The notes under the pieces: generated by a model
The model's database searches: none
What the model saw: only the letters and a program-made list of their open reading frames with translations
Told to the model about the DNA's origin: nothing
Program-made: the position numbers and the translations under genes
Shown: positions 13,704 to 58,207 of the stretch, one piece after another
Numbering within the stretch: the stretch's first letter is position 1
Layout: every line of letters starts with the position of its first letter
Assembly: GCA_000004985.1 (NCBI GenBank)
Contig: GG738851.1
Reading direction: 5' to 3' (one strand)
Origin: Naegleria gruberi
Lineage: Eukaryota
DNA length: 64,000 bases

Positions 13704-13775
13704 GGGGACCAGTGGGAATCGAACCCACGGCCTCTCGCACCCAAAGCGAGAATCATACCACTAGACCATGGTCCC
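13704..13775 (-). tRNA. tRNA-Pro(TGG), 72 nt, intact.
   Basis: The reverse complement reads GGGACCATGGTCTAGTGGTATGATTCTCGCTTTGGGTGCGAGAGGCCGTGGGTTCGATTCCCACTGGTCCCC. The 7-bp acceptor stem, the T-arm GTGGG/CCCAC and the anticodon stem are all perfect. The anticodon loop is TTTGGGT. A T-run follows, consistent with a Pol III terminator. Confidence 0.9.
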
Positions 13776-14757: not shown

Positions 14758-16413
14758 CTAGTCAGAAAATGTGAATAGTGTTTCAAATAATTCTTGGAGA
14801 TTTCGTTGAATGGAATGAAGAGCATCTCTTGATATGATTGGTTCCATGCAAGAAAGAGAAATAATGAGCTTGGCAGAGTGTTTCTCATTAGGAGGGAGTG
14901 TGAGAGCGCCACATGCTAAGCATCCAGCCAATGCTGATGTGTTTGCAATTGTGTACATGGAGTGAATAGTCAATGGGGTAGAAGAAAGTTGATAACTTCT
15001 TTTCACAGAATCAAGTTGACCATTATTCGTCACTATAAAGTTAACAGGTAGTCCAGCAAGGAAAACATCATTATTTTCTAATGTTTTGGCCATGGCTGTT
15101 TCTCTAGTGAGAGGAGATTGAAGAACATTTGTCAAAATAAATTGGTTTTCAAAATTGGCTGCGTGATTAGAGAGAATTTGTTTTGCATGACTGACGATGG
15201 TTTTCTTCACATCATAACAGGAATCGAATTTTAAATCCTCAATGAAAACACCCACATGTAAGGAAAGAGTGTTTCCATCCAGAACTTGAGAAAGGTGAGG
15301 AATTTTGCTTAATCCAGTTGGATAACCCACTCTAACACAACTATTTGGATGCAATGGATTTTTGTCATGCTCTCTAGCAGCTTTCAAATAGGCGAGTGAA
15401 AGTAATGGAATAAGGCATGAATTAATTGAGACGCCATGTTGTTTGGTAAAATTTCTAAAGTGCTTTAGAGTGTCCCCTTCAAATTCTAACTTCACCATGC
15501 TAACTGTCTTGTGCTCGTGTCTCCTATCGAATTGGATTAAATATTGGTTAGGTTTGTTGAATATCATCTCCTTGATAAATGGAAAGGCATATTTCAAAGA
15601 TTTCCACTTGGCTGAGAATGAGTTTAATCTTGAATCCATTATTATTTCATCAGTAGATGCAAGTAGTTTCTTAATTTCCACTTGTTCTGTTTCTCTTTCC
15701 ATACTCACATTTTCACATTCTCTCAATACTTGTCCTATAAAATTGGAAATTGAAATTCCGTCTCCTATACTATGATTATATCTCACAATCAAATACAAAT
15801 CATTTCCATTCATATAATAATACAATTCCAATTGAAAATCCTTCTCCAAATCGTAACTCTTTTGTGTGAGTACCTGTTCAATATATTCCTGCATTGGATT
15901 TTCATTCTTCTCAAACTCTTTCATTTCTCCCTCTAAATTAACAATTGGAATGAGAGGAAGATATTGATCATCCATCAATTCAAAAGAAAAAGCCAGTTTT
16001 GAACCCTTTGGATTTCTAATAATTCTACTTCTCAATAGAGGCTGTCCCTTTTGAACTCTATCAACAGCCCTTCTCAATACTCCATCAAAATTAAAAGCCT
16101 TTTCAATTTTAATATGCGCAACTCTAAACACCAAACCATTGCCATACTTTTTCAGAGAGGGAGTCAACATGATTTGTTCATTCGGAGACAAATTTCTTCT
16201 ATCCAGAATATGTCGTTCCTTATCACAATTATTGGTTTTGTAGACATGTGAATTTAAAAGTTGATTGGATTGTGTTGAATAGTTGTAATATGATGATCCT
16301 ATTGTTCTAGAAGTAATTTGGACACTGTTCTTCAGGGATGTTGCAAGCAACAAGGAAGATTTGTGTTGCACTTCTTTAATGGAGCGAACGGAATGCTTTG
16401 CCAATTTAAACAT
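14758..16413 (-). CDS. HxxxDG-motif acyltransferase of the condensation / alcohol-acetyltransferase / WS-DGAT superfamily, 551 aa, with a mitochondrial-presequence-like N-terminus.
   Basis: Single ORF. The motif NHSIGDGIS matches the catalytic HxxxDG of this superfamily. The N-terminus MFKLAKHSVRSIKEVQHKSSLLLATSLK is basic and amphipathic. Confidence 0.5.
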   Translation of the reverse strand: MFKLAKHSVRSIKEVQHKSSLLLATSLKNSVQITSRTIGSSYYNYSTQSNQLLNSHVYKTNNCDKERHILDRRNLSPNEQIMLTPSLKKYGNGLVFRVAHIKIEKAFNFDGVLRRAVDRVQKGQPLLRSRIIRNPKGSKLAFSFELMDDQYLPLIPIVNLEGEMKEFEKNENPMQEYIEQVLTQKSYDLEKDFQLELYYYMNGNDLYLIVRYNHSIGDGISISNFIGQVLRECENVSMERETEQVEIKKLLASTDEIIMDSRLNSFSAKWKSLKYAFPFIKEMIFNKPNQYLIQFDRRHEHKTVSMVKLEFEGDTLKHFRNFTKQHGVSINSCLIPLLSLAYLKAAREHDKNPLHPNSCVRVGYPTGLSKIPHLSQVLDGNTLSLHVGVFIEDLKFDSCYDVKKTIVSHAKQILSNHAANFENQFILTNVLQSPLTRETAMAKTLENNDVFLAGLPVNFIVTNNGQLDSVKRSYQLSSTPLTIHSMYTIANTSALAGCLACGALTLPPNEKHSAKLIISLSCMEPIISRDALHSIQRNLQELFETLFTFSD

Positions 16414-16467
16414 TTTTTAATAAGAAATCTGAACAGTAAATTAATTACAAAATTAAATTATCAACAT

Positions 16468-16495
16468 ATAGGGCAAAATATTTCAATTCCGATCA
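16468..16495 (+). repeat. Left terminal inverted repeat of the pogo-like element.
   Basis: The sequence was compared directly with the reverse complement of 18538-18565. Confidence 0.8.
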
Positions 16496-16691
16496 CCCTC
16501 GATTTTCGATCATCTTGAACAATTTTAATAGTAAACTTTCAAAGTTTTTATAATGTATATGTAGTAGTGTGGGTCTTCTCTACCCGTATCGTTTGTTTGT
16601 TTTGGTGAATAAATTGTTTTGCAATAAAATTACCAAAGTTTACAACCATGTTTAATATGAAAAAAATATAATTCCGATCACCTTCATCATC

Positions 16692-18474
16692 ATGGTTAAG
16701 AAGAAATTAACAAAAAAGCAGGAACATGAACAACAGCAACAGGAAGAGGAGGAGAAGAGAGAGAAAGCATTAGAATATTATAATACCACAAATGGTGCAT
16801 CCATCAGAAGCGTAGCCAAAAAATTCGACATTCCATATACAACTTTTAATGATCTAGTAAATGGAAGATCATCAATTAATTCACATGCTGGTAGAAAGAC
16901 CTACTTTACTAAAGAGGAAGAGGATGAATTAAAGGAGTGGATATTTGAAAGGAATGATAATAATTTACCTGTCAATGAATATGATGTGATTAACAAAGCC
17001 AACAAGATGTATGAGTACAAGTACAATAAACCAAAAGATCTCTCTGATGGATGGTATCAAGACTTCAGAAGTAGGAATCATGATATTGCTGTTAGAGAAG
17101 CAGAAAGGCTTGAACAAGTTAGAACTGAAAGTGAAAATTCCCAAGTCGTAGAATTATTCTTTGATCAATTAGAGAAGGAAATTAAAAAGAATAACTTAAT
17201 GCCTGACCATATCTATAATTGTGATGAAACAGGAATCCAAAGGAATGAAACTACAGGATACACTCTTGCCAAAAAAAGGAAGTCATCCATCTATGGTAAC
17301 TTCTTCATCTAGAGAAACATGTTCAATACTTGTTTGTGGAAATGCTGCAGGATCATATGTTCCTCCTCTATTTATTTATAAAGGAAAATCCGTATCAGAT
17401 GATATGTTCAGTGATTTGGATAGTAAAGCAACGGTATTTGCTACTGAGAATGGATTTATTACAACAAATTGCTTTTTGAGTTGGATGAAGAAGAACTTTA
17501 TTGAACACATACCTTCAAGTAGACCAGTATTATTATTGTACGATAATCATTCCACTCACTGTGATTCTGATGTGTTGGAATATGCCAAGCAAAATAATAT
17601 TATTGTTATGTCCATTCCACCACACTTGAGTCACTTATATCAACCACTTGATGTAGGTGTTTTCTCATCCATGAAACAAAGTTTCAAACATTTTAATACT
17701 GAGTTCATGAAAAATAATTTAACCTCCTCACCATCCAAAAAAGACTTTACAAAGATATTACATGAAGCATATGAAAATTCTGCATCCCATCATAATATTG
17801 TTAGTGGATTCAAAGAAGCTTGTATTGTACCACTTGATAAGAAGTCAGCACTTGCCAAAATTCAACATTCCAAAAATAGTAATCAAGATGAAAAACCACC
17901 TTCCAAATTTGGAAATTTATTACATGAACCACCAAAACAAACCAAAGAAAAAACCAGAGTGAAAACTAACTTTGTACTAACACGCAACGACTATATGGTA
18001 ACAGCACTAGAAAAAAAAGCAGAAAAAGAAAAACAGAAAAGAAAGAAAGAGGAAGGAAAGACCCTTAGAGAAGCAAAGAAGAAAGCTAAAATCGAAACTC
18101 GTGCCCAAAACACCCTGTTGAAGAAACAGAAGCAACATGGTGTGGTTTGTTCATGTCATCATGCTTGTGGATCTAATCATACATGTAAATGCAAATTGGC
18201 GGGAAAAATGTGTACTATGTATTGTACTTGCCATGCAAAGTGTGCATATTCTATGGATAGAAATCCAACCTCCTCTCCAAGTGCATCATCATCACAAAAT
18301 ATATGCTGCTACTCTGGATGTAAATTTAAAGACGATCATGATGGTATGGTGACATGTTCGACTTGTAAAAAATTATGCCATTCCAAAACATGTACAATGC
18401 CATCAACAGAAACAATCAATGGAAAAGAGATTACCAACATCTTATGTATTGATTGTGGAGAGAAAGAGCCATGA
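16692..18474 (+). CDS. pogo-type transposase of about 590 aa: CENP-B/psq HTH, Tc5 HTH and a DDE_1 catalytic domain, followed by a Lys-rich linker and a C-terminal Cys-rich (CXC/metallothionein-like) domain. The frame is broken once in an A7 run at 17271-17277.
   Basis: ORF1 (16692-17312) ends …YNCDETGIQRNETTGYTLAKKRKSS…. ORF2 (17221-18474) continues …LLPKKGSHPSMVTSSSRETCSILVCGNAAGSYVPPLFIYKGK…LLLYDNHSTHCD…PPHLSHLYQPLDVG…. Removing one A from the A7 run fuses both into a canonical DDE_1 alignment. The C-terminus reads CSCHHACGSNHTCKCKLAGKMCTMYCTCHAKC…. Confidence 0.8.
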
Positions 18475-18537
18475 CTTCCCAATGACTTTTCAAATAAATC
18501 AACAATTTATTGCTGCACCAGTGATCGGAATTTGAAT

Positions 18538-18565
18538 GTGATCGGAATTAAATTATTTTGCCCTA
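18538..18565 (-). repeat. Right terminal inverted repeat of the pogo-like element.
   Basis: The sequence was compared directly with 16468-16495. Confidence 0.8.
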
Positions 18566-18922
18566 ATAGTTGGAAATTTAAATCCGTAGGTACTTGTATC
18601 CTCTCCAGAACGAAGATACAATTTCATTGGAATTTGTTGATGACGAGTTGAATTTTTGAAAATTTCGGACAATAATTAAAATTGTAATTTTTAAATGTAA
18701 CGGTAAAGATTTTAAAAAAATTAAGAAATTCCATCCTCACTTTATTCATATTATTACATAATGATGAACAAACACTCTAAAAGGTTGCGTTGGGGTATGG
18801 ACATCTTCATTAAAATTGAAGTCCACTCAGTAAGCGAGCACTTTCTCCACTCATCATCATGCTAAGGAATTTAGGCTTCTTGATTGTCATCATTTACAAT
18901 ATCAAAAAAAACACAAGAGAGA

Positions 18923-19794
18923 ATGGTCTTTGAATTAACTTATTTCGGAATTGCTGGTCGTGCTGTAAGTAAAAGAGAGTTTTTATTGGAGAGATTAATG
19001 AAATAATTCGTAATGTGCTTGGAATGGAATATTCAACATGATCAACTTTTTAATTTCGGCTTTTTGTATGTGATCATCAACATGAATGTACATTCCTTGA
19101 TCATCACAATTTATTATTAAATTCCACTATATTTGGATAATGATTGTTATATGAAATTATTAACATACTAATTGTACCTTTTATTACATCATCAATATAT
19201 TGTAGGAAGCAATCAAGCTTATTGCTGAAGTTGGAGGTACCCAATACACCTTTACACCAGTTTCCTTCCAAGATTGGCCTAAAGTAAAGCCAACAACCAA
19301 GTATGGCCAATTGCCAGTATTGAAAAACTCTGAAGATGAAAGCTTTGAGCTATGCCAAAGTATTGCAATTGCTAGATTTTTCGCTCGTGAAGGTAACTTG
19401 TACCCAACATTGAACGTTGATGCTTCCTTCTCTGATGAATATGTCAACACTATCAAGGTATGTTAAATTCTATTCACATTTATTGAACTATACAATAGGA
19501 TTTAAATGATGCCTATTTCAAAGCAATCTTCTCTCCAAATAAGGAAGAAGAATTGAGAAAGTACTATGAAGGACCATTCGTTCAAACATTGGCTGCATTG
19601 GAAAAGGAAGTCAAACCAAGTGGTTTCCTTGTGGGTACTGCCTTGAGTTGGGCTGATTTATTCTTATTCGATTTATTGTCAGGAGTTGGCAAGGACAAGG
19701 AATTGCCAACTAAATTGGCTGCTCTTAAGGAAACTATTGCAGCCAATCCTAAAGTTATTGAATATTATCAGTCAGATAGAAATTTAAGAAAGTA
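18923..19794 (+). CDS. Sigma-class glutathione S-transferase (prostaglandin-D-synthase-like). Three exons: 18923..18964, 19206..19457 and 19499..19794. Introns 18965-19205 (241 nt) and 19458-19498 (41 nt).
   Basis: The spliced product MVFELTYFGIAGRA|EAIKLIAEVGG…YGQLPVLKNSEDESFELCQSIAIARFFA…|DLNDAYFKAIF…LSWADLFLFDLL… aligns with sigma GSTs (compare MPNYKLTYFNGRGRAE…QSLAIARYL). Donors are GTAAGT and GTATGT; acceptors are TGTAG and AATAG. Confidence 0.8.
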
Positions 19795-19892
19795 AATTCT
19801 AGAGTTTATTCTTCAAATACATTTGCTTCAATTTCAAATCCTAATTCAATTTCAAATTTTAAAGCAAAATTACAAAATCAAACTTTAAAAAA

Positions 19893-34296: not shown

Positions 34297-35814
34297 ATGA
34301 CGCGAATACTCTTATCCTATCAACCCAAAAATCCATTCTTTACTCTCATCATGATGGTTAATAAGTAAGTGGACACTTATAGGTCAAAATACAAAAGACC
34401 AAAATTTATTAAAACTACTTACTCTGAATCTATTTCATGATATAGGAATAACTATACGGATGAGCCCTGTACGGAACCTTATTTTCTAGCTGTAGATCCT
34501 CAGAAAATCACTCCTAATCATTTGGATTTTAGTAATGGATTGTTTGTGAGTGAGATTAAGGAACAATTATATTTACATAGTGAGGAACCTTGTTGGTTTG
34601 GATTGACAGCAAAGGGGAAAATTGCAATCATGATCGATGTTCATAAGAGTGCTGATTTTAATAGGACATTTCTTGATAAATGTAAGAGAATTAGTTTGGC
34701 ATCGTTTGAAACAGTTGAGGAGACTCTTGGAGTTGATGATTCCGTTGATTTGAGGTCGGAATCTGCTGCCTCTCCTGGAGCTCTCTCAACAACAGATTCT
34801 GTAACAACTGATAGACCTAAAAAATATGAGAGGAGAAAGGAATTAAAAGTGGACCATTTAACCAAAATGAAAAATGATGTCAAGCTGCTAATTGTGAAGG
34901 ATTACTTACATTCAAATTTGAATCCTATTGAGTATCTTCAAAAAGTTGCAATCAAGATTCGTCACTTGGATGGATTCAATTTATTAATTGGAGATTTTTC
35001 GAAGGGAATGTATTTCTATTCAAATAAGGATAAGGAAAAATGTATTTACGAATTGGTGCAAGGAGAGTATGCTCTGGGGCCTGTTCCAGGTCTTGACACC
35101 TGTACAGAAGTGTTTGAATGTGTAGATAGAGCAAAGAGAGAGTTTTTAAAAATTGTAAATTCTATTGGAGGCCATGAACTGGAGGAAGTTCCAACAGATC
35201 CAGATTTATTGAACTTTTGGATTGATGAGAAAAAGGCCACTGTCAAGGAAAAACGAAAACAACTCTCCGAGACATCAACCATAAGGTCACTCTTTCAAAT
35301 TTGTGAGAGAGAGGATAAGCTCATCATTGATGACAATGACATGGATCAGTATCTTGCATTAACCCCAACTTTGAAAGATCTATTGAGCTCAATGTTTATT
35401 AATCACCCTGTTTTTGGAACTGAACTTAACATGCTAATGATTTTGCATGATAACAATCAATTCCCAACAGATGATGAAATCATCAAGTCGTTTGGTAAGA
35501 AAGTTGCAACCTTCACCAAAAAGAAGAAAGGCAGTTTGCTAAGAACTAGCTCTGGTAACATTGTACCAACAAGACCAATTTCTATTGAAACTCCTGAAAA
35601 GCCTCCTCCACCAATGTTTAGTATTGATAGAAAGAAGTACTTGTGCAATTTATACATTAGAAAATACGATCAAGAATTGTTGACCCAAGTCAGGGAAGGT
35701 CATTTCGATAAAGATGACTTTTGGGAAACAATCATTCCAAAGAGAGGGCAGATTGAAGATACATTCTACAAATCAATTATGCAATATTTTTATGTGGATA
35801 CAAATGTCGACTAA
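34297..35814 (+). CDS. TANGO2 / NRDE-family-like protein with a C-terminal extension. Two exons: 34297..34364 and 34446..35814. Intron 34365-34445.
   Basis: The spliced N-terminus MTRILLSYQPKNPFFTLIMMVNK|NNYTDEPCTEPYF…EEPCWFGLTAKGKIAIMIDV resembles TANGO2 (MCIIFFKFDP…ANRDEFY…GGTWLGISTRGKLAALTN). Donor AA|GTAAGT, acceptor GATATAG|G. Confidence 0.45.
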
Positions 35815-42229: not shown

Positions 42230-42684
42230 ATGCGTCGACCGGGAATTGAAATTTCCTTTTTTGGAACTCATTTAACTTTTAATTTTATGATGAAATTATG
42301 AATGTTTTATTTTATTATTATTCATGATGTGAAACATCATGTTGAATTCTGTTCATTATTTTTAATTCATGATGTGAAACATCATGTTGAATTATTAACA
42401 AATGTTGTTCTTCAATTTTTCATTGAATGTTGGAAATATTGGAAAGTTGGAAATAAAAGTTGGAAGTTAGGTAACGGGTTATGGAATTACCTAATGTGAA
42501 ATACATTGTAACAGAATTAACAAGAATAAAAGCAAAATCCTACATAGAGTTGGAGAACGGGAAATGAAATTCCCAAATTGAAATTGAGAAACAACTATTC
42601 ATTTCACAATAATTCATACTATCAAAATGAATTGAACCCGGGTCACGGCGATGGCAACGCCGTATTCTACCACTAAACCATCGA
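42230..42684 (-). pseudogene. tRNA-Gly(GCC) gene split in its T-loop by a 378-bp insertion. The 5' part is 42684..42629 and the 3' part is 42250..42230.
   Basis: The 5' fragment reads GCGTCGATGGTTTAGTGGTAGAATACGGCGTTGCCATCGCCGTGACCCGGGTTCAATTC and the 3' fragment reads TTCAATTCCCGGTCGACGCA plus T5. Joined they make a perfect 71-nt cloverleaf with acceptor GCGTCGA/TCGACGC, T-stem CCGGG/CCCGG and anticodon GCC. TTCAATTC is present at both junctions. Confidence 0.8.
42251..42628 (-). mobile_element. 378-bp non-coding MITE-like insertion inside tRNA-Gly, flanked by an 8-bp direct duplication, TTCAATTC.
   Basis: It contains two perfect 29-nt direct repeats (ATTCATGATGTGAAACATCATGTTGAATT at about 42316 and 42365), each an imperfect palindrome. 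It also has a (GTTGGAA)n microrepeat at 42425-42465, an 8-bp inverted repeat TTAGGTAA…TTACCTAA at 42467-42494, and an A-rich end. There is no ORF and no clear TIR. Confidence 0.6.
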
Positions 42685-42878
42685 CGCTTCTTATTAGTCT
42701 ATCAAATATTATAATAATAGATAGTGTGATTTAATAAACTGTCATCAATGAAGTGTGAACAAATGAATGGAGCGCCACATTACCAAAAAAAAATATCAAC
42801 CCTAAACGGTTTATCGTTTCAACATGTAGCCAAATTTTTCAAGAACAAAAAGCAATAATTTATCACCAACAAGAATAC

Positions 42879-55336: not shown

Positions 55337-58207
55337 TTAAAGATTGGCATAGGTAGCCTTTCTCTTAATACAAGAATAAACACAGAGACCAATATTGACA
55401 GCTACAGAAACGAGTAAAGCAGTAGCCAAAGAGGTAATGATTAAGGCAAATTCCCAATTGAAAAAGTTTACAATATTGGATGGAGAAACATCAGTTACAT
55501 CGAGGGATCTTCTAATTCTTGAGGCCTTAGTAATCTTCTTTCCATTAATAACCAAACTGTATTTTTGTGGACCGTGTGGAACATTATGTCCTTTAACAGT
55601 TACAATCAAATCAGTATTAACTGGTGGGAGTGGAATCAAAATCTTTTCAACATTGTTCAATCTGTCAGGTTGATTATTATTGTACAAGTGGTTACCATAG
55701 ATGGATTGAACTTCACCATTTGTTTCATATTCCAATTTCAAGTCCAAATCATTGACAAGGGCAAGAGAGGCCATTGGAGAAGCAGGATAATCAGTCCAGG
55801 CCAAAGTAATTGCCAATTCTGTGGCATTATCACCAACATTGAAAGTATATGAGTGAATGATATCAGTGGTAATTTCTTGTCTATCAATAACGAACAAATC
55901 TTGTGGAGTTTGTGGGTTATTGGCCAACTTTAAGGTGTTTGACAAATTAATGAGGCCGTGTCCTTCAAAGATAGTTCTGTGCTTCTTATTGAAATGAGTG
56001 AAAGAGTCAGTCTTTCTAGCAAGTCCCTTCATTCCTCTAGCACTTTGAATCAAAATTGCCTTAATAAGTGCAGCAGATGGTTGAGTATATTCAGCATTAA
56101 CTGATGGTTTACCATATGGATAAAAACCATCAGTGAAATACTGTCTTACAAGAGTGGCAGCTGAAGCAACGACAGGTGTTGACATTGATGTACCTCCCAT
56201 TTCTTTCAATTGTAATTTCATATCATTCTTATTGGAGAGAGAACATTTACCTTCTTGAGAACCGAAATGAGATCTGGCAGAAAGCAAGAAATAACCTGGA
56301 GCTACAATATCTGGCTTGATACGACCATCGAGTGTTGGTCCCAATGAACTGAAATCTGCCAAGTTTTGTTCATTGAAGAATGGTTTCAACTTTTCATCTT
56401 CCAAACTCTTCAAGGCACACTTTTGACTGCATGCAAATGAAACATTGAAATTGAGTTTCTTCTTCATAATCTTCAATTTGTGTTTGAATTTACAATTGTC
56501 TCCCATGTATGCATTACATCCTTCTTCGGATTTCAACTTGTCAATGGCTGAACACTTCTTAATATTACAGACGCCACATTTACAATTGTACTTTTTGGTC
56601 AATTTCTTACGTAAAATATTGGCACGTTGTGTGTAATTTCTATATTTGAGAGCTTCTTTCCATGATTCAATTCCACTGACAGAGGCACCAACAATGATAG
56701 AATTCTTGGCTTGCTTTGATGGACCAGTCAATGTCATGTAACCTTTGGCACCAGAATTACCAGCAGACCAAACTACAAGGAAATCATCATGTTCATATTG
56801 GAATTTGTCAATTTCTTGTGTTGATTGAGTGTATCCATTACCAATCTTACCACCCAATGAATTGGATGAAATACGAGCACCCAATTTATATTGAGGTTCG
56901 AATAAACCACTATACAAGTCAATTGGTGTAACCAATTTGTTCTTTCCTGGACATTTTCCTTCTGGATACATGTAACATGGACAAGCATCGAATGAATCAC
57001 ATTGACATCCACCATCCAAATCACAACCAACATCAAAGAAAACCAATTTAGAATCTTGTGCAATACCATTGTGTTTACAAATTGGACTATCTGGATAGAG
57101 ACATTTACCAGCAAGAGTTCCTGAAGTGTGAGATCCATGTCCATGTCCACCATCTTTTCTATCCATAAAAGCAACATAGGCCTTAATCTTACGATGATTA
57201 CTTTCAACAGCTTGAGGAGCATTTAAAACAGTTCTAATTAATGAATCACTACTTTGAATGACTGGAACAGAAGCAGCTGGATCATGGAAGAAACAATGAT
57301 CAACATCCAAACCAGAATCAGTAATGGCAACTGTTTGATTCTTACCAGTAATTCCAACTTGATAGAATGGACCATCACCAATACTTGCCCTTGATGATCC
57401 CTGTTGAACAATTAAACGAGCATTGTAATTTTCTGGAAGGAAACCATCACGTTCCATGTCGAATCTTTCAATCCAGTGAATGGCTGGATGATGAGCCAAA
57501 ATATCAACAACCAGAACTAGATCATGTCTAGAACAGATTTGTAAACTAATCATGACCTTTCTATTGGAAACAACTCTCAAATATTTTACATTGGTGAGAT
57601 TTTCACAGGCACTTCTAATTTGTCCAGCAACATCTCTGGCAGATTGTGAAGAAAGTTCAGGAACTAAACTAACACTCATGTGAACAATAGCTCCACCAAC
57701 CTTTCTTCCAGGAGTATTTACACTACAGCTTTCGAATACTCCAGATTCCATATCACGAATCAAATTTGGATCAACCTTCATCTTTGGAGTGAGTGGAATC
57801 AAATGAGAAACTTGTGGATAAGCTTGAACCTTCTTCACTTGATCATTATTAATATAAACTAAATACGAATGTTCTGGAATGTATTGTAATAATTCACAAC
57901 CAGTTGACTTTTCAAAAGTAATTTGTACCTTTTCAGTCAATTTGATATTTTCCTTGAATTTTACAATATATTGGTGTGGAATTAAATTAGATTTATCCAA
58001 TGGAAGACCATCAGAAAGTTCCAAATAATTTTCCTCATTAGTTTCTTCTCCTTTACTCAAAACATTTGCCTGTTTAATAATTCCCTTATAGTATTGTTTA
58101 AAACGATCCAGATATTCATTGGATGATCCAGATTCACTACCCATGCACAGGGTGATGAAAAGTGCAAAAATTATTAAAACAAGAAAGAGCGTTAAAAATC
58201 TCTTCAT
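55337..58207 (-). CDS. Subtilisin-like serine protease (S8 family) of 956 aa with a signal peptide, a Cys-rich insertion and a C-terminal TM anchor.
   Basis: Catalytic-triad motifs are VAITDSGLDVDHC (Asp), HGHGSHTSGTLAG (His) and GTSMSTPVVASAATL (Ser). The C-terminus has the hydrophobic helix FALIITSLATALLVSVAVNIGL. Confidence 0.8.
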   Translation of the reverse strand: MKRFLTLFLVLIIFALFITLCMGSESGSSNEYLDRFKQYYKGIIKQANVLSKGEETNEENYLELSDGLPLDKSNLIPHQYIVKFKENIKLTEKVQITFEKSTGCELLQYIPEHSYLVYINNDQVKKVQAYPQVSHLIPLTPKMKVDPNLIRDMESGVFESCSVNTPGRKVGGAIVHMSVSLVPELSSQSARDVAGQIRSACENLTNVKYLRVVSNRKVMISLQICSRHDLVLVVDILAHHPAIHWIERFDMERDGFLPENYNARLIVQQGSSRASIGDGPFYQVGITGKNQTVAITDSGLDVDHCFFHDPAASVPVIQSSDSLIRTVLNAPQAVESNHRKIKAYVAFMDRKDGGHGHGSHTSGTLAGKCLYPDSPICKHNGIAQDSKLVFFDVGCDLDGGCQCDSFDACPCYMYPEGKCPGKNKLVTPIDLYSGLFEPQYKLGARISSNSLGGKIGNGYTQSTQEIDKFQYEHDDFLVVWSAGNSGAKGYMTLTGPSKQAKNSIIVGASVSGIESWKEALKYRNYTQRANILRKKLTKKYNCKCGVCNIKKCSAIDKLKSEEGCNAYMGDNCKFKHKLKIMKKKLNFNVSFACSQKCALKSLEDEKLKPFFNEQNLADFSSLGPTLDGRIKPDIVAPGYFLLSARSHFGSQEGKCSLSNKNDMKLQLKEMGGTSMSTPVVASAATLVRQYFTDGFYPYGKPSVNAEYTQPSAALIKAILIQSARGMKGLARKTDSFTHFNKKHRTIFEGHGLINLSNTLKLANNPQTPQDLFVIDRQEITTDIIHSYTFNVGDNATELAITLAWTDYPASPMASLALVNDLDLKLEYETNGEVQSIYGNHLYNNNQPDRLNNVEKILIPLPPVNTDLIVTVKGHNVPHGPQKYSLVINGKKITKASRIRRSLDVTDVSPSNIVNFFNWEFALIITSLATALLVSVAVNIGLCVYSCIKRKATYANL

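What the first reader, a model, noticed from the sequence alone, without database searches (positions are those of the whole stretch)
16461..18572. Intact-looking pogo/Tigger-like DNA transposon with TIRs and subterminal repeats in a divergent promoter region
A 2.1-kb unit is bounded by 28-bp terminal inverted repeats that match at 26 of 28 positions (TAGGGCAAAATA…AATTCCGATCAC). Extra subterminal copies of AATTCCGATCAC lie at both ends, the likely transposase-binding sites. Inside is a full-length CENP-B-HTH + DDE_1 transposase. The element sits between the divergently transcribed acyltransferase gene (start 16413, minus) and the GST gene (start 18923, plus). The high TIR identity and near-intact ORF suggest recent activity. 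The flanks read ATA…ATA or TA, so the target-site duplication cannot be fixed exactly.
Basis: seen in the sequence. Interest (0 to 1): 0.7.

Follow-up and report, generated by a model that had tools for sequence, protein, structure and literature searches.

The report
Frameshifted pogo-type transposon in Naegleria gruberi
This is an ordinary cut-and-paste "jumping gene" of the pogo superfamily lying between two Naegleria gruberi genes; its ends are intact but one extra base breaks its transposase gene, and its only unusual feature is a cysteine-rich tail on the transposase.

Summary
The window is Naegleria gruberi NEG-M. At 16471-18563 lies a 2093-bp DNA transposon with 26-bp terminal inverted repeats (24/26; 26/28 if the flanking TA is counted). 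It carries four exact copies of AATTCCGATCAC. Its transposase has HTH_Tnp_Tc5, a weak HTH_psq, and DDE_1 with a DD35D triad.

The ends are GGGC...GCCC and the target-site duplication is TA (8 of 8 ends).

The element has moved and is multi-copy. A fragment sits on another NEG-M scaffold, inside gene model XP_002674271. A 789-bp internally deleted copy, about 98% identical, sits at a different site in a metagenome contig.

"Intact" is overstated. A 1-nt insertion in an A-run (A7, 17271-17277) splits the ORF into 206 aa and 417 aa. The closest relative has A6 in frame, so this copy cannot encode a full transposase.

By domains it fits Fot-like better than Tigger; there is no CENP-B_N hit. The unusual part is a conserved C-terminal 9-Cys CXC-type module plus a PHD-like finger. 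Only 13 representatives among 1.84 billion proteins match it.

Verdict: a new member of a known kind, of low to moderate interest.

The parts
16469..16470 (.). Left copy of the TA target-site duplication
   Evidence: TA lies directly outside GGGC at all 8 ends examined (window, L005 and L002 both ends; L001 and L006 right ends).
16471..16496 (+). Left terminal inverted repeat, 26 bp: GGGCAAAATATTTCAATTCCGATCAC. It contains the 12-mer AATTCCGATCAC at 16485-16496.
   Evidence: Matches the right TIR at 24/26. The terminal GGGCAAAAT and the TCCGA core at a fixed offset are shared with relatives L001 and L002.
16502..16513 (+). Degenerate second copy of the 12-mer (ATTTTCGATCAT, 9/12), 17 bp inward of the first. 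It extends the inverted repeat to about 43 bp (35/43).
   Evidence: Alignment of the two ends. The 17-bp spacing equals that of the two perfect copies at the right end (D11).
16670..16681 (+). Third left-end copy of AATTCCGATCAC, 10 bp upstream of the transposase ATG. It lies within a 26-nt partial copy of the TIR (16660-16685, 81%).
   Evidence: (D2, I2, I17). It is retained in the deletion derivative L005.
16692..17312 (+). ORF1 (206 aa): the transposase N-terminus with HTH_psq-like (aa 24-59) and HTH_Tnp_Tc5 (aa 74-134) DNA-binding domains and the first catalytic Asp (D178, codon 17223-17225). It ends prematurely because of the frameshift.
17271..17277 (+). A7 run carrying a 1-nt insertion (+1 frameshift) inside the conserved LAKKGS motif
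   Evidence: Removing one A gives a colinear 593-aa protein. The closest relative L001 reads GCC AAA AAA GGA (A6) in frame, and L002 and L004 are in frame too. Intact single-ORF relatives exist (P0033, 607 aa).
17278..18474 (+). Remainder of the transposase in the +1 frame (ORF2 is listed as 17221-18474). It holds DDE_1 with D284 (17542-17544) and D320 (17650-17652), giving DD35D. A Lys/Glu-rich linker and the Cys-rich C-terminus follow; the stop is at 18472-18474.
   Evidence: DDE_1 at 81-82 bits. D178, D284 and D320 are invariant in the 10-sequence alignment A3.
18148..18243 (+). 9-Cys CXC-type module: C-x-C-x3-C-x5-C-x-C-x6-C-x3-C-x-C-x3-C
   Evidence: All nine Cys are invariant in A1. Profile A2 matches tandem-repeat proteins P0034 and P0037 over residues that Pfam calls TCR, the tesmin/TSO1 CXC domain. 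There is no direct Pfam hit. hhalign to the LIN54 CXC lines up the Cys but gives probability 4%.
18304..18456 (+). PHD-like zinc finger: C-x4-C-x11-C-x2-C-x4-H-x3-C-x17-C-x2-C, ending in CGEKE
   Evidence: Conserved in P0001, P0022, P0024, P0029, P0032, P0033 and L002 ORF2. Relatives have the W-x-H signature (P0031, P0032). The only PDB similarity is weak: the EBS PHD, E=0.71. Distant pogo relative P0007 has a Pfam PHD (PF00628) at the same place.
18521..18532 (-). Inner right-end copy of AATTCCGATCAC
18538..18563 (-). Right terminal inverted repeat, 26 bp (reverse complement GGGCAAAATAATTTAATTCCGATCAC)
18564..18565 (.). Right copy of the TA target-site duplication
14758..16413 (-). Flanking host gene (context, not part of the element): 551-aa Condensation-domain protein XP_002681228.1. 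Its ATG is 57 bp from the element's left end.
18923..19795 (+). Flanking host gene (context): intron-containing GST. Its proposed ATG lies 359 bp beyond the element's right end.
   Evidence: GST_C_3, GST_C_2 and GST_C hits on 19553-19792. Exon 1 and its gtaagt donor were read directly from the sequence.

Best explanation
A copy of a cut-and-paste DNA transposon of the pogo superfamily (IS630-Tc1-mariner group) in Naegleria gruberi NEG-M. It inserted at a TA dinucleotide in the roughly 415-bp divergent intergenic region between a Condensation-domain gene and a GST gene.

Inferred mechanism, from family knowledge:
- The bipartite N-terminal HTH (psq-like + Tc5/CENP-B type) of the transposase binds the AATTCCGATCAC sites. 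There are two per end, 17 bp apart, plus one just upstream of the ATG.
- The DDE_1 RNase-H-fold domain (D178, D284, D320; DD35D) cuts at GGGC...GCCC and joins the ends to a target TA, which is duplicated.
- The C-terminal CXC-type Zn cluster and PHD-like finger are an accessory module conserved in this lineage. It most likely adds DNA or chromatin contacts.

This copy has complete ends but a 1-nt insertion in an A-run. It can encode only a 206-aa HTH-only product, or a 5'-truncated catalytic part. It is therefore a recently disabled, non-autonomous copy that could move only with transposase supplied by another copy.

Shown here: the anatomy, the domains, the TA duplication, multiple copies and sites, and that the frameshift is derived. 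Inferred: which protein part binds which site, and what the C-terminal module does.
For: - TIRs match at 26/28; the best match in 60 shuffles was 22.
- The 12-mer occurs 4 times against 0.38 expected.
- Pfam: DDE_1 81 bits and HTH_Tnp_Tc5 34 bits above cut-off, HTH_psq 18-20 bits.
- The DD35D triad is invariant across 10 relatives.
- TA lies next to GGGC at 8 of 8 ends from 5 independent insertions. The flanks diverge immediately outside it.
- The same element at about 97.8% identity, with internal deletions, lies at another locus (L005).
- A fragment lies on another NEG-M scaffold.
- L001 has A6 in frame where the window has A7.
- Intact single-ORF homologues with the same N-to-C architecture exist (P0033, 607 aa; P0031).
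- The organism is confirmed by exact protein identities.
Against: - No empty-site allele could be retrieved.
- The copy number in the NEG-M genome could not be counted, because no searchable eukaryotic genome DNA was available.
- Every copy inspected is damaged: the window by a frameshift, L001 by an in-frame stop, and L005 by deletions and a stop. In L002 and L004 the C-terminal domain lies in the -1 frame. Current activity of the family in N. gruberi is therefore unproven.
- HTH_psq is below Pfam's cut-off.
- Binding of the 12-mer by the transposase is inferred, not tested.
- The AlphaFold model of the C-terminus was unusable (pLDDT 43).
Confidence: 0.9

Rival explanations
1. The element is still autonomous. 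The A7 run is a programmed +1 ribosomal frameshift or a transcriptional-slippage site. It would yield a short HTH-only regulator (206 aa) and, at low frequency, the full 593-aa transposase, as in bacterial IS1/IS3 OrfA/OrfAB systems.
For: The shift lies exactly in a homopolymer, A7. The short product would hold only the DNA-binding domains. A TIR-like binding site lies 10 bp upstream of the ATG. Relatives L002 and L004 also have split ORFs.
Against: The closest relative has A6 in frame at the same codons, and L002 and L004 are in frame there. Intact single-ORF homologues exist (P0033, P0031). The breaks in other copies are at different places and of different kinds, which is the pattern of random decay. 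A +1 shift on A7 has no known precedent in eukaryotic pogo elements (own knowledge).
Confidence: 0.04
2. The frameshift is an assembly or sequencing error in a homopolymer, and the genomic copy is in fact intact and autonomous.
For: Homopolymer length errors are common. Everything else in the copy is intact: both TIRs, all binding motifs, the DDD triad, and no other stop across 593 codons.
Against: To my knowledge the NEG-M reference is a Sanger assembly, in which A7/A6 miscalls are uncommon. This could not be checked here, because raw reads are not available.
Confidence: 0.07
3. It is a domesticated pogo-derived host gene (like CENP-B, TIGD or POGZ) rather than a transposon.
For: Pogo transposases are domesticated repeatedly (PMC7386202). 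The extra CXC and PHD-like domains resemble chromatin-protein architecture.
Against: The TIRs and TA duplication are intact. Copies and a deletion derivative lie at unrelated loci. The ORF is frameshifted. The element is not annotated as a gene in NEG-M: no identical protein is in the database.
Confidence: 0.01
4. The element has TAGGGC termini with a 3-bp ATA target duplication, as in PIF/Harbinger-style elements, instead of TA.
For: In the window the flanks read ATA|TAGGGC...GCCCTA|ATA.
Against: With TAGGGC termini, L005 would have flanks CAT and TTT, and L002 would have ATT and ATA. Neither is a duplication. TA plus GGGC fits all 8 ends. The transposase is DDE_1, not the PIF/Harbinger type.
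Confidence: 0.01

Closest known systems
Fot-like clade of the Fot/Fot-like family, pogo superfamily (Gao et al. 2020, PMC7386202)
   Same: It has HTH_psq + HTH_Tnp_Tc5 DNA-binding motifs, DDE_1 and DD35D spacing. The TSD is TA. The TIR is about 26 bp, extending to about 43 bp. The length of about 2.1 kb is within 1.2-5.2 kb. The paper reports Fot-like elements in one excavate species.
   Different: No phylogeny was made here, so the family assignment rests on domain pattern only. HTH_psq is below Pfam's cut-off. The C-terminal CXC + PHD-like module is not among the transposase features listed in that paper. I could not confirm whether the excavate species there is Naegleria, because the stored supplement is cut.
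Tigger / pogoR families (human Tigger1, Drosophila pogo)
   Same: Same superfamily: DDE_1 catalytic domain, Tc5/CENP-B-type second HTH, TA duplication, short TIRs. A database name of one distant hit is 'tigger transposable element-derived protein 4-like' (31% identity).
   Different: Tigger and pogoR carry CENP-B_N as the first HTH. No CENP-B_N hit appears here even at E<=10. Identity to named Tigger-like proteins is only 24-31%.
Tc3 / Sleeping Beauty type IR-DR ends (Tc1/mariner)
   Same: Each end has two transposase-site-like repeats in the same orientation, one terminal and one internal.
   Different: The spacing is only 17 bp, not about 165-170 bp (own knowledge). The transposase belongs to a different superfamily (DDD pogo, not DD34E).
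CXC (tesmin/TSO1, MSL2, LIN54) Zn3Cys9 DNA-binding domains and PHD fingers (e.g. the RAG2 PHD)
   Same: The nine-Cys pattern is almost identical to CXC. MSL2 CXC is a Zn3Cys9 cluster that binds DNA (PMC3447885, PMC4248295). Profile A2 hits proteins that Pfam calls TCR. The last module has PHD-like C4HC3 spacing with W-x-H in relatives.
   Different: There is no direct Pfam TCR or PHD hit. hhalign probability is 4%. The PDB hit to a PHD has E=0.71. No structure model is usable. Here the modules are fused to a transposase.

Membership tests
pogo superfamily (IS630-Tc1-mariner group) | Transposase with a DDE_1 (PF03184) catalytic domain | tested here: met
   81-82 bits against a cut-off of 22.
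pogo superfamily (IS630-Tc1-mariner group) | Catalytic D, D, D triad with 29-59 residues between the last two | tested here: met
   D178, D284 and D320 give DD35D. They are invariant in alignment A3.
pogo superfamily (IS630-Tc1-mariner group) | N-terminal HTH DNA-binding region including HTH_Tnp_Tc5 | tested here: met
   34-37 bits against a cut-off of 22.2.
pogo superfamily (IS630-Tc1-mariner group) | Terminal inverted repeats | tested here: met
   26 bp at 24/26, extending to 35/43.
pogo superfamily (IS630-Tc1-mariner group) | TA (or TAA/TAAA) target-site duplication | tested here: met
   TA at 8 of 8 ends from 5 insertions. No empty site was available for direct proof.
pogo superfamily (IS630-Tc1-mariner group) | Multiple copies or evidence of mobility | tested here: met
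   A second NEG-M scaffold carries a fragment. Deletion derivative L005 lies at a different site. The genome-wide copy number was not countable.
Fot-like (Gao et al. 2020) | HTH_psq and/or HTH_Tnp_Tc5 DBD, with DD35D | tested here: met
   HTH_Tnp_Tc5 is clear and the spacing is DD35D. HTH_psq scores 17.9-19.9 bits, just under the 20.4 cut-off.
Fot-like (Gao et al. 2020) | Phylogenetic placement within the Fot/Fot-like clade | not tested
Tigger / pogoR | CENP-B_N (PF04218) first HTH motif | tested here: not met
   No CENP-B_N hit at E<=10 on the repaired 593-aa protein.
Autonomous (intact) element | Uninterrupted transposase ORF | tested here: not met
   A +1 frameshift at A7 17271-17277 gives ORFs of 206 and 417 aa. 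Relatives are in frame.
Tesmin/TSO1-like CXC domain (PF03638) | Nine-Cys pattern and a profile match to TCR | tested here: inconclusive
   The pattern is met and invariant. The link to TCR is transitive, through P0034 and P0037. The direct Pfam scan is negative, and hhalign probability is 4%.
PHD finger (PF00628) | C4HC3 zinc-ligand spacing and a profile match | tested here: inconclusive
   The spacing is compatible, and W-x-H is present in relatives. There is no Pfam hit. The PDB EBS PHD hit has E=0.71.

The most novel reading that the evidence does not exclude
This element may belong to a small, so far undescribed, Naegleria/heterolobosean-centred pogo lineage. Its transposase is fused to a C-terminal CXC (Zn3Cys9-type DNA-binding) module and a PHD-like finger.

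The module could tether the transposase to particular chromatin or DNA at gene boundaries, in the way the RAG2 PHD finger couples recombination to H3K4me3. All three fully bounded insertions lie at gene edges. The window copy is 57 bp upstream of a start codon. In L002 and L005 the target TA lies inside the TAA stop codon of a neighbouring ORF.

The TIR-like site 10 bp upstream of the ATG could also give autoregulation.
Probability: 0.12. Interest if true: 0.5.

Novelty: new member of a known kind. Interest (0 to 1): 0.22.

Why it matters
The value is mainly for annotation. It defines the ends, the TA duplication, the binding-site layout and the domain map of a pogo-type element in N. gruberi, a model heterolobosean with few characterised transposons.

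It explains a chimeric gene model, XP_002674271.1, whose last 84 residues are transposase sequence.

It flags an insertion 57 bp upstream of the start codon of XP_002681228.1 that may affect that gene's promoter.

The repaired 593-aa ORF, or the intact relative P0033, together with the 26-43-bp ends would be a reasonable starting point for a transposon tool in Naegleria, where genetic tools are scarce.

The CXC + PHD-like tail is a modest curiosity about how transposases acquire chromatin or DNA-reading modules.

Tried and rejected
- Intron instead of frameshift: rejected. The only GT..AG nearby (17297-17313) is 17 nt, too short and of the wrong phase. Deleting one A restores colinearity with four relatives across LAKKGS.
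- Retrieving NEG-M DNA for the second copy and for the flanking gene: the look-up of encoding contigs had neither on record. No empty site or genome-wide copy count was therefore possible.
- Other copies in the 64-kb window: none. The two 1-mismatch matches to TAGGGCAAAATA at 34380 and 62187 have no partner or 12-mer and are chance.
- AlphaFold2 of the C-terminal 121 aa with a 6-sequence alignment gave pLDDT 43. No fold search was run on it.
- Direct Pfam scan of the C-terminal module at E<=10: nothing.
- The sigma-70 promoter and terminator scan showed no enrichment and does not apply to a eukaryote.
- Literature: no open paper describing pogo elements of Naegleria was found. The supplement of PMC7386202 is truncated and has no 'Naegleria' in the stored part.
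- The IMG/VR scan gave one distant (24%) pogo-like locus, which is not informative.
- The apparent extension of the inverted repeat outside the TA (16439-16468 versus 18566-18595, I1) is not part of the element. The 98%-identical copy L005 has unrelated flanks.
Full report
**Source and context.** The window is Naegleria gruberi strain NEG-M. The 551-aa protein encoded at 14758-16413 (- strand) is identical to XP_002681228.1. The 956-aa ABC transporter at 55340-58207 (- strand) is identical to XP_002681236.1. Both are recorded on a 693,645-bp scaffold. GC content is 31-37% throughout, with no compositional break at the element.

**Checking the observation.** The sequence at 16469-16496 (TAGGGCAAAATATTTCAATTCCGATCAC) matches the reverse complement of 18538-18565 at 26 of 28 positions. 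In 60 shuffles of the 2.45-kb region, the best 28-mer inverted match averaged 20 and never exceeded 22. AATTCCGATCAC occurs exactly four times in 64 kb, all inside the unit: 16485 and 16670 on the + strand, 18521 and 18538 on the - strand. Chance expects 0.38, and no shuffle reached four.

Inside are two ORFs, 16692-17312 (206 aa) and 17221-18474 (417 aa). Pfam finds HTH_Tnp_Tc5 (36.7 bits) and HTH_psq (19.9 bits, just under the 20.4 cut-off) in the first. It finds DDE_1 (81.9 bits) in the second. The left neighbour has a Condensation-type acyltransferase domain. The right neighbour has GST C-terminal domains.

**True ends and target-site duplication.** A homologue search and contig look-ups gave five related insertions:
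- L002 (43% aa identity) has TIRs GGGCAAAATTATGGAACTCCGAAC / GGGCAAAATTATGGAATTCCGACC.
- L001 and L006 (58% aa identity to the window, about 68-69% nt identity) share one right end, GTGATCGGAAAAAAATTATTTTGCCC, but have different flanks.
- L005 carries the same element as the window.

In all eight ends, similarity stops at GGGC and the next two bases outward are TA. Beyond that the flanks are unrelated. The alternative of TAGGGC ends with a 3-bp duplication fails in L005 (CAT versus TTT) and in L002. The element is therefore 16471-18563 (2093 bp), flanked by TA at 16469-70 and 18564-65. The TIR proper is 26 bp (24/26).

A degenerate second 12-mer on the left (ATTTTCGATCAT, 16502-16513) mirrors the perfect inner copy on the right at the same 17-bp spacing. 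This extends the inverted repeat to about 43 bp at 35/43. The third left copy at 16670-16681 lies in a 26-nt partial TIR duplicate, 10 bp before the ATG.

**Mobility and copy number.** Only one copy is in the window. Two lines of evidence show more copies elsewhere.
- The NEG-M gene model XP_002674271.1 (P0008) is a TPR/CobW protein on a different 362,555-bp scaffold. It ends with 84 residues that are 98.8% identical to transposase residues encoded at 17836-18087. Its N-terminal part is absent from the window.
- Contig L005 (ENA ERZ929261) holds a 789-bp derivative at 199-987. It is built from window blocks 16471-16485, 16493-16552, 16622-16939, 17733-17809 and 18242-18563. The two long blocks are about 97.8% identical. 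It has TA on both sides and unrelated flanks.

The family has therefore transposed and produced internally deleted, MITE-like derivatives. I could not count copies in NEG-M or find an empty allele. The available DNA collections do not include this eukaryote, and exact-protein look-ups failed.

**State of the transposase gene.** The two ORFs are in different frames. They overlap around GCC AAA AAA A GG (A7 at 17271-17277). Deleting one A yields a continuous 593-aa protein that is colinear with all relatives through the conserved TLAKKGS motif. L001 reads GCC AAA AAA GGA in frame, and L002 and L004 are also in frame there. Single-ORF homologues with the same architecture exist (P0033, 607 aa; P0031, 568 aa). 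The A7 is therefore a derived 1-nt insertion, not an intron and most likely not a programmed shift.

Everything else is intact: no other stop, both TIRs, all sites. The catalytic triad is D178 (17223-17225), D284 (17542-17544) and D320 (17650-17652), which gives DD35D. It is invariant in a 10-sequence alignment. The copy is best described as recently disabled and non-autonomous.

All other copies I could inspect are damaged too, each in a different way. L001 has an in-frame stop. L005 has deletions and a stop. In L002 and L004 the C-terminal domain sits in the -1 frame. This is the usual pattern of transposon decay.

**Family placement.** DDE_1 + HTH_Tnp_Tc5 + DDD + TIRs + TA place it firmly in the pogo superfamily. 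In the scheme of Gao et al. (PMC7386202), Tigger and pogoR have CENP-B_N as the first HTH. Fot/Fot-like have HTH_psq and/or HTH_Tnp_Tc5 with DD35D, TIRs often 40-60 bp, and TA/TAA/TAAA duplications. Fot-like elements were found there in one excavate species.

Here there is no CENP-B_N hit even at E<=10. There is a near-threshold HTH_psq hit, and the spacing is DD35D. 'Fot-like' therefore fits better than 'Tigger-like', but I made no tree. Identity to named Tigger-like proteins is 24-31%.

**The C-terminal module.** After a Lys/Glu-rich linker, the protein ends in two Cys-rich modules.
- The first is a nine-Cys module at 18148-18243 (C-x-C-x3-C-x5-C-x-C-x6-C-x3-C-x-C-x3-C).
- The second is a C4HC3-like module at 18304-18456 ending in CGEKE.

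All nine Cys of the first module are invariant among five family members that are only 37-58% identical. Pfam finds nothing directly.

An exhaustive profile search of 1.84 billion representatives found only 13 matches. Those with an N-terminus are pogo transposases (DDE_1 + HTH_Tnp_Tc5). Two others, P0034 and P0037, are long tandem-repeat proteins whose matched residues Pfam calls TCR, the tesmin/TSO1 CXC domain. This gives a transitive link to CXC domains. In MSL2 the CXC domain forms a Zn3Cys9 cluster and binds DNA (PMC3447885, PMC4248295). hhalign to a LIN54 CXC repeat lines up the Cys but is not significant.

The last module resembles a PHD finger. Relatives carry the W-x-H signature. The only PDB similarity is the EBS PHD at E=0.71. 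The distant pogo relative P0007 has a bona fide Pfam PHD at the same position. The AlphaFold model was too poor to use (pLDDT 43). The function of this module is unknown. Extra DNA or chromatin contact is the most economical guess.

**Insertion site.** The left end is 57 bp from the ATG of XP_002681228.1, and the right end is 359 bp from the GST ATG. The pre-insertion intergenic region would have been about 415 bp, reading ...ATCAACATA-TA-ATAGTTGG... This is a near-palindrome, CAAC-N3-TA-N3-GTTG. Whether the insertion changes expression of either gene cannot be tested here.

1. The TSD is TA.
2. The copy is frameshifted and non-autonomous.
3. It is Fot-like rather than Tigger-like by domains.
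4. It has a conserved CXC + PHD-like tail.

It is a new, or at least not openly described, member of a very well-known kind of element. Literature searches found no description of Naegleria pogo elements. Interest is low to moderate.

Noticed in passing
Not in window: N. gruberi XP_002674271.1 (P0008), aa 356-439, equivalent to window 17836-18087: This annotated TPR/CobW 'predicted protein' on another NEG-M scaffold ends in 84 residues of pogo transposase sequence. It is probably a chimeric gene model reading into a second copy of the element through a cryptic AG acceptor. The model stops after ...KKKA, where the window copy continues, so that copy may carry a stop.
   Followed up: partly
L005:199-987 and L002:398-2470: In both related insertions, the target TA lies inside the TAA stop codon of a convergent ORF on the right flank. 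After insertion the stop is regenerated as TAG, from the TA plus the element's terminal G/C. Together with the window copy (57 bp upstream of an ATG), all three fully bounded insertions sit at gene edges. This may be selection in a compact genome or a targeting preference.
   Followed up: partly
window 16457-16470 and 18564-18577; L002 and L006 flanks: The flanks show recurring bases. CAAC lies 3-4 nt from the TA in three of eight flanks, and TA-ATAGT occurs in three right flanks. The window's pre-insertion site is the near-palindrome CAAC-N3-TA-N3-GTTG. This may be a weak palindromic target preference, as known for Tc1/mariner, but the sample is too small.
   Followed up: partly
L002:1835-2401 and L004:1637-2158: In two more distant family members, the CXC + PHD-like C-terminal domain is encoded in a separate ORF in the -1 frame relative to a 408-aa HTH + DDE ORF. 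In L002 there is an ATGA stop/start overlap. It could be independent decay, or a shared feature such as a frameshift, intron or two-ORF organisation.
   Followed up: partly
P0034 (1899 aa), P0035 (869 aa), P0037 (1169 aa): These are long proteins made of 10-24 near-identical tandem repeats of a nine-Cys CXC-type unit separated by acidic or Ser-rich spacers. Their origin and function are unknown. P0034 and P0037 were what linked the transposase tail to Pfam TCR; P0035 has no Pfam hit.
   Followed up: no
P0002 (N. fowleri 'unnamed protein product', 787 aa): This N. fowleri gene model fuses an N-terminal stretch that looks like the C-terminal zinc-knuckle region of a non-LTR retrotransposon ORF2 to a pogo transposase of this same CXC-bearing lineage. 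P0031 is the same transposase without the fusion and with the PHD-like tail. The lineage is thus shared by N. gruberi and N. fowleri.
   Followed up: no
window 13704-13775 (-) and 42617-42688 (-): Two tRNA genes, Pro-TGG and Gly-GCC. No tandem repeats scoring 80 or more occur anywhere in the window.
   Followed up: no
L007:2985-4154 (IMG/VR UViG_3300009325_000066): A contig classed as viral encodes a distant (24% identity) pogo-like DDE_1 protein.
   Followed up: no
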